Part shown: positions 39,001 to 42,548 of the stretch, in pieces
Layout: each line of letters begins with the position of its first letter
Position numbering within the stretch: the first letter of the stretch is position 1
NCBI GenBank assembly: GCA_040767805.1
Contig: JAXGNU010000004.1
Coordinates: 1-64,000 of the forward strand
DNA: 64,000 nucleotides
From: Thermovirgaceae bacterium
GTDB taxonomy: Bacteria > Synergistota > Synergistia > Synergistales > Thermovirgaceae
Direction: 5' to 3'
Position numbers: made by a program

Positions 39001-42000
39001 GCGGCGAAGTCCCGTATCTCCCGGTACCCCAGGAAGAGAGGACCCTTGTTGGAGGTGATCACGTCCTTCCCCCGCTGGAGCCCACCGAGGATGAAGCCCT
39101 TCGGCTCTTCCGGGGACTGGAGGGCGGTGGAGGTACACACGACCAGGAGGTCGTAATCCATCTCCTGGACCATCTCCCCCGCCGAGGGACAGCCCCGCCC
39201 ACCCCGGGAGGGGGCCGGGCCGAGCCTGCCCGTGGAGGATTCCTTTTTCAGGAGGGCTCCGATATCCAGCCCCCCAGGGTCGCTCACGCAACCCCTCGAG
39301 CGGGTCGCTATACCCACGAAACGGCCATCGACGCCGAACAGGTCCTTCAAGATAGGGGCTTTCTCCTCGACGATCTCACAGAAGGCCCTCCCCACGTTGC
39401 CGAAACCGAGAAGAAGGATCTTCAAGGCTATCGTCACCTCCCGCCGGACAGTCATCAAAGCCATTGGGGTCTATGATATCATTGCGTTTGATCTTCCAGA
39501 GCGGAATGCCCGAAACGACCCGTAAAAGGGATTTCCCCGGGGGAAAAGAACAGGACGGGAGGCCACAAGTAATGACCGATCCAAAGGATGATCACGACAG
39601 GGTCTTCAGCGAGAACTACGCCAGGGCGGCGGCCCGGGTGCTGGAGGCCGTCTCGAGGACGGCCCAGCTTTCCTCGCTGGCGACGCCGGAAGTACAGGAC
39701 CTCTTTGAGAACTGGCTCGAAATACTGGGCCGCCAGATCCTGCTGGACCAGGAGGTGCCCGGCCGAATGGATATCCCCTCGAAGGCGGCCGAGATAGGCG
39801 TGTCGTCCTCCTCCCTGCTGGGGTTGCTCCTTTACCTCCAGAGGCAGGGCAGGATCTGTATAACCGAGGTCCTCCTCGCGCCGGGATGCGGCCGCGATGA
39901 GGATATCTGCGACTGCATCAGGCAGGGGTGACAGCCGTGACCGACATAGAACTGCTCTCAAAGCGGGCAAGGATGAAGGCGGCCAAGGCCGAGGCCGGGC
40001 TCTTCGAACGCCCCTCGCCGGAGAGGGTCCGGAGTTCCATCGACCATACACTCCTCACCGCCGGGGCCTCCCTGGAGGACGTGGCGGCCCTGTGCGACGA
40101 GGCGGTGCGCTTCGGGTTCGCCTCGGTCTGCGTCCCCTTGAGCTGTGTTCCCGACGCCCGGCGATTCCTCTTGGGGTCGGCGGTCAAGGTGGGGACCGTG
40201 GCGGCCTTCCCCCTGGGGTCCACCCCGATACCGGTTAAGACCGCCGAAGTACGCTGGGCCCTGGACAACGGGGCCGACGAAGTGGACGCCGTGGTGGATA
40301 TCAGGGCCGCCAGGGCCCTCGACAGGGGAGCCCTCCGGGACGACCTTTCGGCCCTGAGGGAGGCCTCCCGGGGGGCTGTCCTCAAGGTGATCCTCGAGAT
40401 GCCCCTGCTGAACGACGCCCAGGCGGTCACCGCGGTGATGCTGGCCGAGCAGGCCGGCGTGGATTTCCTCAAGACCTGCACGGGCTTCGCCGGTGGCGTC
40501 ACCTTCTACCACGTGGCCCTTTTGAGGACCGCCGCCTCCGACAGGGTAAGGATAAAGGCTTCCGGCGGGATCAGGACCTACGCGGCGGCGGAGATCCTCG
40601 TGGCCCAGGGGGCCGACAGGCTGGGGACGTCGAAGGCGACGCAGTTTTTGACCCCCCCGGAGGGCAAAGCGCTTTAGTCGATCCCCTGCCGGGGCCCAGG
40701 GAAGGGCTATACAAAAGGGCCGGAGGCATGCGCCTCCGGCCCTTGGTTCATCCTGTAAAAAAAGGTTTCCGGCGGCGTCCTACTCTCCCACCCCTCGAAG
40801 AGGCAGTACCATCGGCGCTGGAGGGCTTAACTGCCGGGTTCGGCATGGGTCCGGGTGTGTCACCTCCGCCATGGCCACCGAAAACCTTTTAAATACCGTG
40901 AATCGTAAGTCGTAAATCGTGAGTCGTAAGTACCGTGAATCGTGAATCAGAAGAACCGTGAATCGTGAGTCGTAAATCGTGGGTCGAAAACCGTGAATCG
41001 CAAGGTCAAATTCATAGGCTGATCGTTTTGCTTTTACGTTTTGCTCTTACGATTCACGACTCGTATATTCTTTCGTCGGTTCTAAAATGAACCCTGTAAG
41101 GCAGTAGGTTTCGGGACGGCGAAGACCGATTTACGACTGAGGCCCTAGAGCCTGTTCGTAAGATAGGTCTAGTCGTTCCCACCGAGAACGGACGGTATGC
41201 TTGGGGCCCGGTAAGCCCGCATTTACGAGGCCGTTCCCTGGGAACAATGCCGTCCCGACAAACCAACTGTAGCATTTCCTACGGGGGTGTTGAAGCTATG
41301 AACCAATGTTTTGTCGGGATCGACGTCAGCAAGAAGCAGATCCATGTCTGTGTCCTTGGCGAAAAGCCCCATCCCTACCCGAACTGCCTCACCGGGTTCC
41401 GGAAGATGATGAAAAGCCTCAGGGAGAAGAAACCCCATGGCGAAGAGACCTTCTTCCTCATAGGGATGGAGGCCACCGGTGTCTACCACCTCAAGCTCGC
41501 CACCTTCCTGAAGGACGAGCCCGATGTGGCCGTTTACGTCCTGAACCCCGCCCAGGTGAAGAGCTTCTTCAAGGCCTCCTTCCACAGGACCAAGACGGAC
41601 GCCATAGACGCCTGCGGCATAGCTTCGTGCACGGAGTTCCTGGTCAAAAGGGACAAGGTCCGTGCCTTCGAGACCCCCGACAACGAGGTCGAACGGCTCA
41701 GGCAGCTCTGCCGCCGCCGGGAGGAGATCCTCTCCATGGTCCAGATGGAGAAAAACAGGATCGAAGCCTTGAAGGAGGTACCATCCCACTCCGGGGAAGT
41801 GGAAAGCTCCCTCCTGGAGCACCTGGAGTACCTGGAGCAGCGCCTTAAGGATATCGAAGAGAAGATCAAAGGACACATACGGAACTCACCGGGACTCAAA
41901 GAGCAGGTGGACCTCCTCAAGTCGATACCGGGCATTTCCGATACCGCTGCCGCCGGACTCATCAGCGAGATTCGCTGCGCCGAGCGGTTCGACAATGTCA

Positions 42001-42548
42001 AGGAGCTGGTCGCCTTCGCGGGATTAGCGCCGGCGGAAAGGACCTCCGGTACCTCCGTGAAGGGCAGGACCTGCATCTGCAAAACTGGTTCGTCCAGGCT
42101 GAGGAAGCACCTCTACATGCCCGCCCTGGTCGGCATAAGATACAACCCCCTGCTGAAAGAGTTCTACGAAAGACTGACGAACCGCAACAAGCCCAAGAAA
42201 GCCGCTCTCATAGCCTGCATGCGCAAACTGCTTCACATAATCTACGGGGTCCTGAAGAACAGAACCGCCTTTGACCCCCTTTGGGCGAAGAACAGGTTCG
42301 CCATGGCCTGTTGAAACAGATCGGCTTATGAGGGTTCATTATTTTCAAGGTTGACGGAAGACGGTATCTTACGATTAACGATTAACGGCCCTTTTATGGA
42401 TGAAGCAGATCAAAGAGGTTAAGGCCTCGGTCAATTAGTACCAGTCAGCTCAAGGCCTCGCAGCCCTTACACCTCTGGCCTATCGATCACGTAGTCTCCG
42501 TGTTACCTTACCCGCTTTATCCGCGGTGAGTGGTCTCATCTCGGGGCC

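What a model noticed while it worked through the whole genome (the two positions that open the first line are those of the whole stretch)
40767..42415. IS110 bridge-RNA-type element that inserts into heptamer arrays, one copy inside the 23S-5S spacer
A 1.34-kb IS110-family element lies at heptamer arrays in all three of its copies. One copy sits, together with a 102-bp array, between the 23S and 5S genes of the only complete rRNA operon. Its left-end RNA is predicted to be a bridge RNA whose first loop carries the heptamer target sequence.
Evidence so far: The element and its sites: - Call 37: NF033542 'IS110 family RNA-guided transposase', 1.6e-67. - Calls 8 and 52: copies at C4:41049-42387 and C6:71606-72944, and a fragment at C2:125986-126330. 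- Call 40: 5S at C4:40767-40882, 23S at 42415-45601 and 16S at 45747-47352, all on the minus strand. - Call 38: the junctions lie in ACGATT[C/A]ACGATT repeats. - Call 53: a remnant in G001 lies beside an array. The left-end RNA: - Call 59: LE 79-90 equals the left junction. LE 108-117 is a 10/10 complement of the right end. - Calls 102-104: an 86%-identical element sits in TCTCACG repeats. It differs in just these loop-1 strands, which match its own flank 10/10. Stem-loop 2 is conserved.
(Added by a program. Inside this text positions count along the whole contig: contig position 1 is position 1 of the stretch shown here. "Call 12" and the like, gene names such as g00115 and contig names such as C1 are that model's own, and its searches are not shown. 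The text may have been shortened before it was handed on; [...] marks where a part breaks off. The agent that wrote the report below was given it as the finding of a first reader that could run no searches.)

Follow-up and report, generated by a model that had tools for sequence, protein, structure and literature searches.

The report
Bridge-RNA insertion sequence in rRNA spacer
A small RNA-guided jumping gene of the well-known IS110/IS621 kind sits between the 23S and 5S ribosomal RNA genes because its guide RNA recognises a variant unit of a 7-base tandem repeat found there; it is a clear but ordinary member of a known class.

Summary
A 1,308-bp IS110-group element (41062-42369, + strand) lies between the 23S and 5S genes. 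A second, identical copy is on contig C6 and a 345-bp remnant is on C2. All three abut ACGAYTY heptamer arrays.

- **Core and ends.** The core is CT, as in IS621. A congener (G004) has both orthologous sites empty. The C6 site matches letter for letter once the element and one CT are removed.
- **Guide layout.** With these ends the left-end RNA follows the IS621 bridge-RNA scheme. The matches are LTG 11/12, RTG 7/7, a 3-nt handshake guide 3/3, LDG 8/8 and RDG 8/10.
- **RNA fold.** The fold is conserved in 18 relatives, with 33 of 40 pairs showing compensatory changes.
- **Recombinase.** It matches IS621 and ISCro4 over its full length and keeps the DEDD and Ser residues.
- **Retargeting.** A sister element (87.5% nt identity) has an identical donor loop. 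Its target loop is changed and it sits in an ACGTCTC array.

No circle junction was seen, and no transcript was shown to exist.

Verdict: new member of a known kind, of modest interest. The family-wide heptamer arrays are the less understood feature.

The parts
40767..40882 (-). 5S rRNA gene, the only one in the assembly
   Evidence: RF00001, 89.1 bits; 1 match in the whole assembly
40897..41000 (-). Left-arm heptamer array. Read on the minus strand its units are ACGATTY / ACGACTY, inverted relative to the arm that holds the element
   Evidence: TRF period 7, 14.3 copies; sequence read directly
40903..40919 (-). Unoccupied perfect target (LTG 12/12, RTG 7/7, CT core). It is the only perfect free site in the assembly
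41049..41061 (+). Left half-site (LT) ACGATTCACGA plus core CT (41060-41061). This is target DNA, not element
   Evidence: Empty sites in G004; identical in the C4 and C6 copies because the guide specifies it
41062..42369 (+). The mobile element itself, 1,308 bp counting one CT core. It is 100% identical to the C6 copy over this span
41101..41270 (+). Predicted bridge RNA: an outer stem, then a target-binding stem-loop and a donor-binding stem-loop, each with an internal loop (covariance-model core 41113-41256)
   Evidence: Fold z = -4.09. Alifold gave 13 of 34 pairs compensatory in 6 sequences. In 18 sequences, 33 of 40 pairs were compensatory and 0 of 500 shuffles reached the observed values
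41127..41138 (+). Left target guide (LTG), in the sense of LT plus CT
   Evidence: 11/12 to 41050-41061; 3 of 5000 shuffles reach this
41156..41162 (+). Right target guide (RTG), the complement of CT plus TACGA
   Evidence: 7/7
41163..41165 (+). Handshake guide of the target loop, the complement of the last 3 nt of the element's right end (TAT)
   Evidence: 3/3 here and in the 3 relatives examined (4 of 4 elements); concept from PMC11208158
41191..41198 (+). Left donor guide (LDG), in the sense of the right-end bases 42360-42367
   Evidence: 8/8; 40 of 2000 shuffles reach this; ACGGTAT is invariant in the 6-sequence alignment
41220..41229 (+). Right donor guide (RDG), the complement of CT plus the first 8 nt of the left end
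   Evidence: 8/10
41298..42314 (+). Recombinase gene (338 aa), antisense to the rRNA operon
   Evidence: NF033542 at 1.6e-67; PF01548 and PF02371; ISCro4 at 1.5e-42 and IS621 at 2.5e-41; D9, E58, D101, D104 and S250 present
42315..42369 (+). Right end (53 nt) plus core CT (42368-42369). It holds a -35-like TTGACG at 42351-42356
   Evidence: Read directly. The promoter reading is an inference; see the full report
42370..42387 (+). Right half-site (RT) and the rest of the right-arm array, TACGATTAACGATTAACG
42415..45601 (-). 23S rRNA gene, the only one in the assembly

Best explanation
This is an autonomous IS110-group (IS621-like) insertion sequence of 1,308 bp. Its 236-nt left end encodes a bridge RNA upstream of a DEDD/Ser recombinase.

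By analogy with IS621, the element excises as a circle joined through one CT. The donor-binding loop (LDG 41191-41198, RDG 41220-41229) holds the joined ends. The target-binding loop (LTG 41127-41138, RTG 41156-41162) pairs with ...CGATTYACGA-CT-TACGA.... That sequence is a heptamer array containing the variant unit ACGACTT, which supplies the CT core. The recombinase then exchanges strands at CT, and the 3-nt handshake guide (41163-41165) pairs with the incoming donor strand.

One insertion landed in the right arm of the inverted heptamer-array pair that occupies the 23S-5S spacer in this genus. It lies antisense to the rRNA operon.

Shown here: the element's anatomy, its ends and core, the empty sites, guide-site complementarity, conservation of the RNA fold, the catalytic residues, and the presence of the same junctions in other metagenomes.

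Inferred by homology: that the RNA is made, that it binds the recombinase and guides recombination, and that transposition goes through a circle.
For: Ends and core:
- G004:C10 carries the C6 site empty. Its sequence is exactly the G000 flanks with the element and one CT removed.
- The G004 23S-5S spacer has a 31-nt array of 4.4 units where G000 has 31 nt after removal of the element.
- The two full copies are identical over 41062-42369 and differ only in the flank.
- The sister element L101 and the 44-47% relatives L083 and L084 have the same LD-CT-RD ends.

Guides:
- LTG 11/12, RTG 7/7, handshake guide 3/3, LDG 8/8, RDG 8/10.
- Shuffle controls: 3 of 2000, 40 of 2000 and 3 of 5000.
- The layout is as described for IS621.

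RNA:
- Two stem-loops with internal loops, the first variable and the second conserved.
- In 18 sequences, 33 of 40 pairs have changes on both sides. 86.7% of cells are paired, against 33-46% when the partner is slid, and 0 of 500 shuffles reach the observed values.
- Model hits lie just upstream of the recombinase gene in distant relatives.

Protein.

Retargeting: L101 has an identical donor loop and a changed LTG and RTG. It sits at ...CCGT-CT-CACGTCTCACGC.

Core requirement: of 16 sites in G000 within 1 mismatch of the target, 14 have TT in place of CT and are empty.

Independent samples: contigs of DNA runs X11 and X12 carry both rRNA-spacer junctions and the C6 and C2 junctions.
Against: - No circle junction was found in the assembly (0 hits) or in four laid runs (no joints).
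- No sigma-70-like promoter was found in the integrated copy (0 sites).
- Rfam has no family that matches.
- RNA-library contigs cover the element, but contigs cannot prove transcription or strand.
- L101's own left flank matches its LTG only 7/12, and the LTG of L083 and L084 fits only with a 1-nt register shift (9/11 by eye, 3/12 in the fixed register).
- L102 (97% aa identity, right end only) sits at a non-heptamer site with only 5/7 RTG match.
- The alignment behind one search was fitted to the model's structure, which favours pairing.
- Enrichment of changes in the target loop between the two sister elements is weak (p = 0.055).
Confidence: 0.9

Rival explanations
1. The element is the 1,339-bp shared block (41049-42387). 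The ACGATT repeats at both ends are a target duplication or an ambiguous core. The left-end RNA uses a guide layout different from IS621, making it a new bridge-RNA variant.
For: The C4 and C6 copies are alignable over 41049-42387. The 10/10 complement spans the right end and the flank, which looks non-canonical if the end is placed at 42387.
Against: - The exact empty site in G004:C10 leaves ACGATTC ACGACTT ACGATTC ACGATTT ACG, so the shared outer bases are target DNA.
- The only two differences between the copies fall in those outer bases.
- L101 shares the sequence only between the CT cores.
- With CT as core, every guide falls in the IS621 position.
Confidence: 0.03
2. The heptamer-like strings in the left end are passive relics of captured target array, not guides. 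The association with arrays would then reflect recombination between repeats, or protein-only recognition.
For: Because the target is a direct repeat, LTG and RTG are complementary to each other. The minimum-energy fold pairs them, so the free RNA could hide them. No RNA or binding data exist.
Against: - The strings occupy exactly the two strands of the first internal loop, which is variable in 18 homologues while the stems covary.
- One string is sense and the other antisense, and they overlap at the core as in IS621.
- The antisense string runs on into 3 nt of donor (the handshake guide), which no captured array would contain.
- In L101 the same columns carry different letters that fit its own right flank 6/7.
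Confidence: 0.04
3. The element is real but no longer mobile, so the copies are fixed relics. Its position in the rRNA spacer would then be a neutral fossil with no ongoing activity.
For: - No circle or polymorphic empty site appeared in 4 laid runs.
- The same three junctions occur in metagenomes of several studies, which suggests fixation.
- One copy is truncated.
- Only 7 of 268 genomes of the phylum carry even a distant relative.
Against: - Two copies are 100% identical over 1,308 bp at unrelated loci.
- The ORF is intact with all catalytic residues.
- The guides are intact and still match a free perfect site 150 bp away.
- Contigs drop rare variants, so absence of circles is uninformative.
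Confidence: 0.25

Closest known systems
IS621 (Escherichia coli) and ISCro4, bridge-RNA-guided IS110-group recombinases
   Same: - The recombinase is homologous over its full length (E 2.5e-41 and 1.5e-42) and keeps the DEDD and Ser residues.
- The left end is longer than the right end (236 vs 53 nt).
- The core is CT.
- The RNA has a variable target loop followed by a conserved donor loop.
- The 5' strands have the sense of the left half-sites and the 3' strands are antisense to core plus right half-sites.
- A handshake guide lies 3' of the RTG.
- It targets a repeated intergenic sequence.
   Different: - Identity to the ISCro4 recombinase is low, judged by eye from the printed alignment; no percent-identity figure was returned.
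- Relatives found in named Enterobacter and Klebsiella genomes are 35% identical. Whether any of these is IS621 itself was not checked.
- The target is a tandem heptamer array rather than a REP element.
- The handshake guide is 3 nt rather than 2, and the LTG reads 10 + 2 nt.
- LTG and RTG are mutually complementary because the target is a direct repeat.
- RNA-level homology to IS621 itself was not tested, because no IS621 DNA was fetched.
IS110-family elements that insert into repeated extragenic sequences
   Same: Site-specific insertion into a dispersed intergenic repeat that acts as a harmless landing site. This behaviour is stated in PMC11208160 (passages), citing Choi 2003 and Tobes & Pareja 2006. 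Other named examples are known to me only from recall.
   Different: The repeat here is a short tandem array, and the usable site is a rare variant unit (ACGACTT) that provides the CT core. One landing site lies inside an rRNA operon.
Intergenic heptamer direct repeats of other phyla (TAACTGA repeats of Beggiatoaceae, Cyanobacteria and Bacteroidetes; cyanobacterial STRR)
   Same: Tandem 7-nt units, many arrays per genome, mostly intergenic, function unknown (PMC4679880, abstract only). The STRR comparison is from recall.
   Different: - The unit sequence differs.
- The host phylum differs (Synergistota is a lead only).
- The arrays come as inverted pairs of fixed handedness and sit in the 23S-5S spacer.
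- The two searches that touched on this listed no paper linking such arrays to IS110 targets.

Membership tests
IS110 family, IS110 group (bridge recombinase elements) | [quoted passage not shown] | tested here: met
   PF01548 at 2.4e-25 (residues 23-175 of the 355-aa ORF) and PF02371 at 1.5e-24; NF033542 at 228 bits against a cutoff of 140
IS110 family, IS110 group (bridge recombinase elements) | Catalytic D, E, D, D and the conserved Ser (IS621 D11, E60, D102, D105, S241 per PMC11208158) | tested here: met
   D9, E58, D101, D104 and S250 align with identical residues of ISCro4 in the printed alignment. IS621 was hit at 2.5e-41, but its alignment was not printed
IS110 family, IS110 group (bridge recombinase elements) | No terminal inverted repeats; left non-coding end longer than right; RNA encoded in the left end | tested here: met
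   The left end is 236 nt (41062-41297) and the right end 53 nt (42315-42367). The structured RNA is at 41101-41270. The criterion comes from PMC11208160 section 12
IS110 family, IS110 group (bridge recombinase elements) | Short core shared by donor and target, present once in the empty site and on both sides of the insertion | tested here: met
   CT at 41060-41061 and 42368-42369; a single CT in the empty orthologous site of G004:C10; the same in L101, L083 and L084
IS110 family, IS110 group (bridge recombinase elements) | Bridge RNA with two internal loops whose strands pair with target (LTG, RTG) and donor (LDG, RDG) and overlap at the core | tested here: met
   11/12, 7/7, 8/8 and 8/10; loops and stems; scheme read
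IS110 family, IS110 group (bridge recombinase elements) | Handshake guide 3' of the RTG that pairs with the donor, not with the cognate target | tested here: met
   ATA pairs with TAT of the right end 3/3 in 4 of 4 elements. Read directly, it forms no Watson-Crick pair with the last three LT bases (CGA). Rule
IS110 family, IS110 group (bridge recombinase elements) | Circular intermediate whose RE-LE joint rebuilds a promoter | tested here: inconclusive
   No joint in the assembly or in 4 runs. A -35-like TTGACG (42351-42356) and a -10-like TATATT (41064-41069) would lie 15 nt apart after joining, against 17 nt in L083 and L084. This was read directly and not scored by any tool
IS110 family, IS110 group (bridge recombinase elements) | The RNA is expressed and binds the recombinase | not testable with these tools
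   Contigs of RNA libraries X15 and X20 cover the left end and the ORF, but they show neither transcription nor strand
Rfam RNA families | Match to a curated covariance model | tested here: not met
   No relevant match up to E = 10 over 40880-42420; only chance-level hits were listed
Intergenic heptamer tandem arrays (STRR / TAACTGA-like) | Many tandem 7-nt arrays per genome, mostly outside genes | tested here: met
   35 arrays of 3 or more units, against 4 in a shuffled genome. 25 of the 35 lie outside the crude ORF map, which covers about 90% of the genome. The motif is present in 11 of 19 family genomes, with 0 hits for the backward control

The most novel reading that the evidence does not exclude
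The heptamer arrays are a family-wide system of landing pads, and sister IS110 elements follow them by re-writing the target loop. This element reads ACGATTY/ACGACTT arrays, while its 87%-identical sister reads ACGTCTC arrays. Both array types occupy the 23S-5S spacer in different genera.

The rRNA-spacer copy lies antisense to the cell's strongest promoter. It would therefore be read through to make the only 5S rRNA, and would flood the cell with RNA antisense to the bridge RNA and recombinase mRNA. That would be a built-in brake on all copies.
Probability: 0.15. Interest if true: 0.5.

Novelty: new member of a known kind. Interest (0 to 1): 0.3.

Why it matters
It gives a clean natural example, with exact empty sites, of an IS621-type bridge RNA whose target is a tandem repeat.

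- The rare CT-bearing repeat unit fixes the register of insertion.
- Guide and counter-guide are mutually complementary.
- A close sister element shows natural retargeting while the donor loop stays unchanged.

The 3-nt handshake guide and the 12-nt LTG are natural variants of interest to people engineering bridge recombinases.

The insertion between the only assembled 23S and 5S genes shows that such elements can be tolerated inside an rRNA operon. None of this changes the known mechanism.

The heptamer arrays themselves are unexplained and may deserve their own study. They come as inverted pairs of fixed handedness, are present in 5 of 7 genera of the family, and lie in the 23S-5S spacer with different units in different species.

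Tried and rejected
1. Core models. One search found no such empty site or circle joint in the assembly. Both models were dropped once CT fitted the relatives and the G004 empty sites.

2. Rfam at E up to 10 gave nothing relevant.

3. The promoter and terminator scan of 40700-42500 found 0 promoter-like and 0 terminator-like sites on either strand.

4. Closer relatives. Genome contigs gave nothing above 39% aa identity among the 80 loci kept. The phylum scan of 268 genomes gave nothing above 49%. Metagenome contigs gave only L101 (86%) and L102 (97%, right end only) among 80 kept. The retargeting claim therefore rests on a single pair.

5. Read laying on 2 RNA and 2 DNA runs showed no joints, so there was no empty site or circle in those samples. 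All data were contigs, so there is no strand, level or end information. One RNA-library contig starts at 41256 next to an adapter-like loose end, which I recognised from recall. That position is the 3' edge of the covariance-model match, but I draw no conclusion from it.

6. The truncated C2 copy is joined to an array at 42039-equivalent without a CT at the joint. I found no bridge-type explanation and treat it as an ordinary deletion.

8. Orientation of arrays relative to neighbouring genes showed no clear rule with the crude ORF map.
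Full report
**What is there**

The window carries a 16S-23S-5S operon on the minus strand: 16S at 45747-47352, 23S at 42415-45601 and 5S at 40767-40882. The 1,532 bp between 23S and 5S hold three things:
- a 104-bp array of 7-nt units at 40897-41000;
- a short unique stretch;
- an IS110-family element whose recombinase gene (41298-42314) points against the operon.

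The protein matches NF033542 'IS110 family RNA-guided transposase' at 1.6e-67. It carries PF01548 and PF02371. It aligns over its full length with the solved ISCro4 and IS621 recombinases, at 1.5e-42 and 2.5e-41. D9, E58, D101, D104 and S250 sit at the catalytic positions.

BLAST of the region against the laid assembly finds a second copy at C6:71606-72944 and a 345-bp right-end remnant at C2:125986-126330. The assembly is 80.6% complete and has one 5S, one 23S and two 16S genes. The second 16S is followed by two tRNAs and a hairpin, not by a 23S. The statement 'the only complete operon' therefore holds for this assembly only.

**Ends and core**

Three independent lines of evidence place them at a CT core, at 41060-41061 and 42368-42369.

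1. The two full copies are identical over 41062-42369. Their only two differences (42377 and 42384) lie in the right flank.

2. Relatives share sequence only between the CT cores. This holds for a sister element from a metagenome contig (L101: 86% aa, 87.5% nt). It also holds for more distant relatives in the same bacterial family (L083 and L084: 44-47% aa). All have ends of the form ...ACGGTAT-CT-C(G/A)TATATT....

3. Congener G004 has both sites empty.
   - At the orthologue of the C6 site it reads ...gggaacc ACGATTC ACGACTT ACGATTC ACGATTT ACG cacaggg.... This is exactly the G000 flanks with the element and one CT removed.
   - In its 23S-5S spacer it has a 31-nt, 4.4-unit array between the same 'ctctt' and 'gccc' landmarks. 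G000 also has 31 nt there once the element is removed.

The mobile unit is therefore 1,308 bp.

**The left-end RNA**

I read the IS621 scheme in sections 6, 7 and 12 of PMC11208160. [quoted passage not shown] With CT as core, the element fits this scheme exactly:

| Guide | Coordinates | Pairs with | Match |
|---|---|---|---|
| LTG | 41127-41138 | LT plus CT | 11/12 |
| RTG | 41156-41162 | complement of CT plus TACGA | 7/7 |
| LDG | 41191-41198 | last 8 bases of the right end | 8/8 |
| RDG | 41220-41229 | complement of CT plus the first 8 bases of the left end | 8/10 |

This is what PMC11208158 calls a handshake guide (passages). It pairs with the non-cognate donor after strand exchange. By direct reading it does not pair with the element's own target.

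Chance is an unlikely explanation. The 10-mer is reached in 3 of 2000 shuffles of the left end, the 8-mer LDG in 40 of 2000, and the 11/12 LTG in 3 of 5000.

**Fold and conservation**

The left end folds well below shuffled controls (z = -4.09). It forms an outer stem enclosing two stem-loops, each with an internal loop.

The minimum-energy fold pairs LTG with RTG. This is a consequence of the target being a direct repeat: sense of one unit against antisense of the next.

In a six-sequence alignment the first loop is variable and the second nearly invariant, and 13 of 34 predicted pairs show compensatory changes.

A covariance model built from five sequences hits the plus strand just upstream of the recombinase gene in distant relatives. 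In the resulting 18-sequence alignment:
- 33 of 40 pairs change on both sides;
- 86.7% of cells pair, against 33-46% when the partner is slid by 1-3 columns;
- 0 of 500 shuffles reach the observed values.

That alignment was fitted to the model, which favours pairing. Rfam has no matching family.

**Target choice**

The guide specifies CGATTYACGA-CT-TACGA, that is, an array containing the variant unit ACGACTT.

In G000, 16 sites lie within one mismatch of this target:
- 1 is perfect and free (40903-40919, minus strand). It lies in the other arm of the same spacer.
- 1 has the CT core with a mismatch in the right half-site.
- 14 have TT where the core should be, and all 14 are unoccupied.

Both occupied sites have CT. 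This fits the known need for matching cores, although it was not tested here.

The sister element L101 has an identical donor loop (0 of 20 guide columns changed). It has 5 changes in the 22 target-guide columns. It sits at ...CCGT-CT-CACGTCTCACGC in an ACGTCTC-type array.

That fit is imperfect. Its RTG matches 6/7, but its LTG matches its own left flank only 7/12. Ten further differences lie elsewhere in the RNA (Fisher p = 0.055).

L102 (97% aa identity, right end only) lies at a non-heptamer site with a 5/7 RTG match.

**Reality of the rRNA-spacer insertion**

Contigs of two DNA metagenome runs from other studies (X11 and X12) carry both spacer-element junctions. They also carry the C6 and C2 junctions as loose ends. 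The junction contigs extend only 17 and 23 nt into the element, which is what de Bruijn unitigs do at a repeat.

No empty-site or circle joints were seen in these runs. RNA-library contigs (X15 and X20) cover the left end, the ORF and the 5S-array-left-end junction. Contigs cannot show transcription, strand or ends, so expression remains unproven.

The scan finds no sigma-70-like promoter and no intrinsic terminator on either strand between 40700 and 42500. The 5S gene therefore most likely depends on read-through of the element from the rRNA promoter. This is an inference.

After circularisation, a -35-like hexamer in the right end (42351-42356) and a -10-like hexamer in the left end (41064-41069) would lie 15 nt apart. 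In L083 and L084 the distance is 17 nt. This resembles the junction promoter described for IS621 (PMC11208160 passages). I read it directly and did not score it.

**Comparison and novelty**

By every sequence-level criterion I could test, the element is a member of the IS110 group of bridge-RNA elements. It works, as far as can be inferred, like IS621.

What is particular to it:
- a tandem-repeat target whose rare CT-bearing unit sets the register;
- mutually complementary LTG and RTG;
- a 3-nt handshake guide;
- a natural sister with a re-written target loop;
- a copy inside the only assembled 23S-5S pair.

Insertion of IS110-family elements into dispersed repeats is well known. My two literature searches listed no paper on IS110 elements in 23S-5S spacers or on heptamer arrays in Synergistota. 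Those searches cover open-access text only and used few terms.

The element is rare. Only 7 of 268 genomes of the phylum have a relative at E <= 1e-60, and none exceeds 49% identity.

I rate it a new member of a known kind, with interest 0.3.

**The arrays**

The less understood feature is the array system.

- G000 has 35 arrays of at least 3 ACGATT-like units, against 4 in a shuffled genome. They are mostly intergenic.
- The target motif occurs in 11 of 19 genomes and 5 of 7 genera of the family, with 0 hits for the backward control.
- Where two opposed arrays lie within about 1 kb, the order is always GAATCGT-type first and ACGATTC-type second. This holds for 7 of 7 pairs, counted by eye.
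- The 23S-5S spacers of related species carry arrays of different units: a CAACAGT-type in G002 and an ACGTCTC-type in G005.
- The G004 spacer can fold into an imperfect hairpin, z = -2.45.

Their function is unknown. The nearest described analogues are the TAACTGA and STRR heptamer repeats of other phyla (PMC4679880, abstract; STRR from recall).

Noticed in passing
window 28026-28138, 40897-41000; G000 contigs C2, C4-C7, C9, C14, C15, C23: There are about 35 intergenic arrays of ACGATTY-like heptamers (4 expected by shuffle). They are present in 5 of 7 genera of the family. Opposed arrays within about 1 kb always come in the order GAATCGT...ACGATTC (7 of 7 pairs by eye). Their function is unknown.
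   Followed up: partly
L182 (G004), L183 (G005), L184 (G002): 23S-5S spacers: The 23S-5S spacer of related species holds heptamer arrays at the same place but with different units: ACGATTY in G000 and G004, an ACGTCTC-type in G005, and a CAACAGT-type in G002. The G004 spacer folds into an imperfect hairpin (z = -2.45).
   Followed up: partly
G000:C2:7000-9393 (locus L195): A second 16S gene (99.7% identical to the window's) is followed by two tRNAs and a terminator-like hairpin but by no 23S or 5S. The assembly therefore has two 16S genes but a single 23S and a single 5S.
   Followed up: partly
window 42415-45601 and 45747-47352: The 23S gene spans 3,187 nt against a 2,925-position model, and the 16S gene spans 1,606 nt against 1,533. 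This suggests intervening or expansion sequences. Their positions were not located.
   Followed up: no
window 47633-56908 (-): An ORF of 3,091 aa lies immediately upstream of the rRNA operon. It has internal repeats spaced 648 bp apart (TRF rows at 54121, 54769, 55417 and 56065). It was not analysed.
   Followed up: no
window 41256 (run X15): An RNA-library contig begins exactly at 41256, next to an adapter-like loose end (recognised from recall). That position is the 3' edge of the covariance-model match to the bridge RNA. It could mark an RNA end between the bridge RNA and the mRNA, or it could be an artefact. Strand is unknown.
   Followed up: no
G000:C2:125986-126346: The truncated right-end remnant of the element is joined, at the equivalent of window position 42039, directly to an ACGATTC array with no CT at the joint. 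Its right junction is CT-TACGGTTTACGGTT.
   Followed up: partly
L083 and L084 (G012, G004): The 44-47% relatives target a different dispersed repeat (...CTCTGTGTC-CT/CC-CTGTGGTGAAAAAGG...), and unoccupied copies lie nearby. L083 also carries a second, solo left end upstream.
   Followed up: partly
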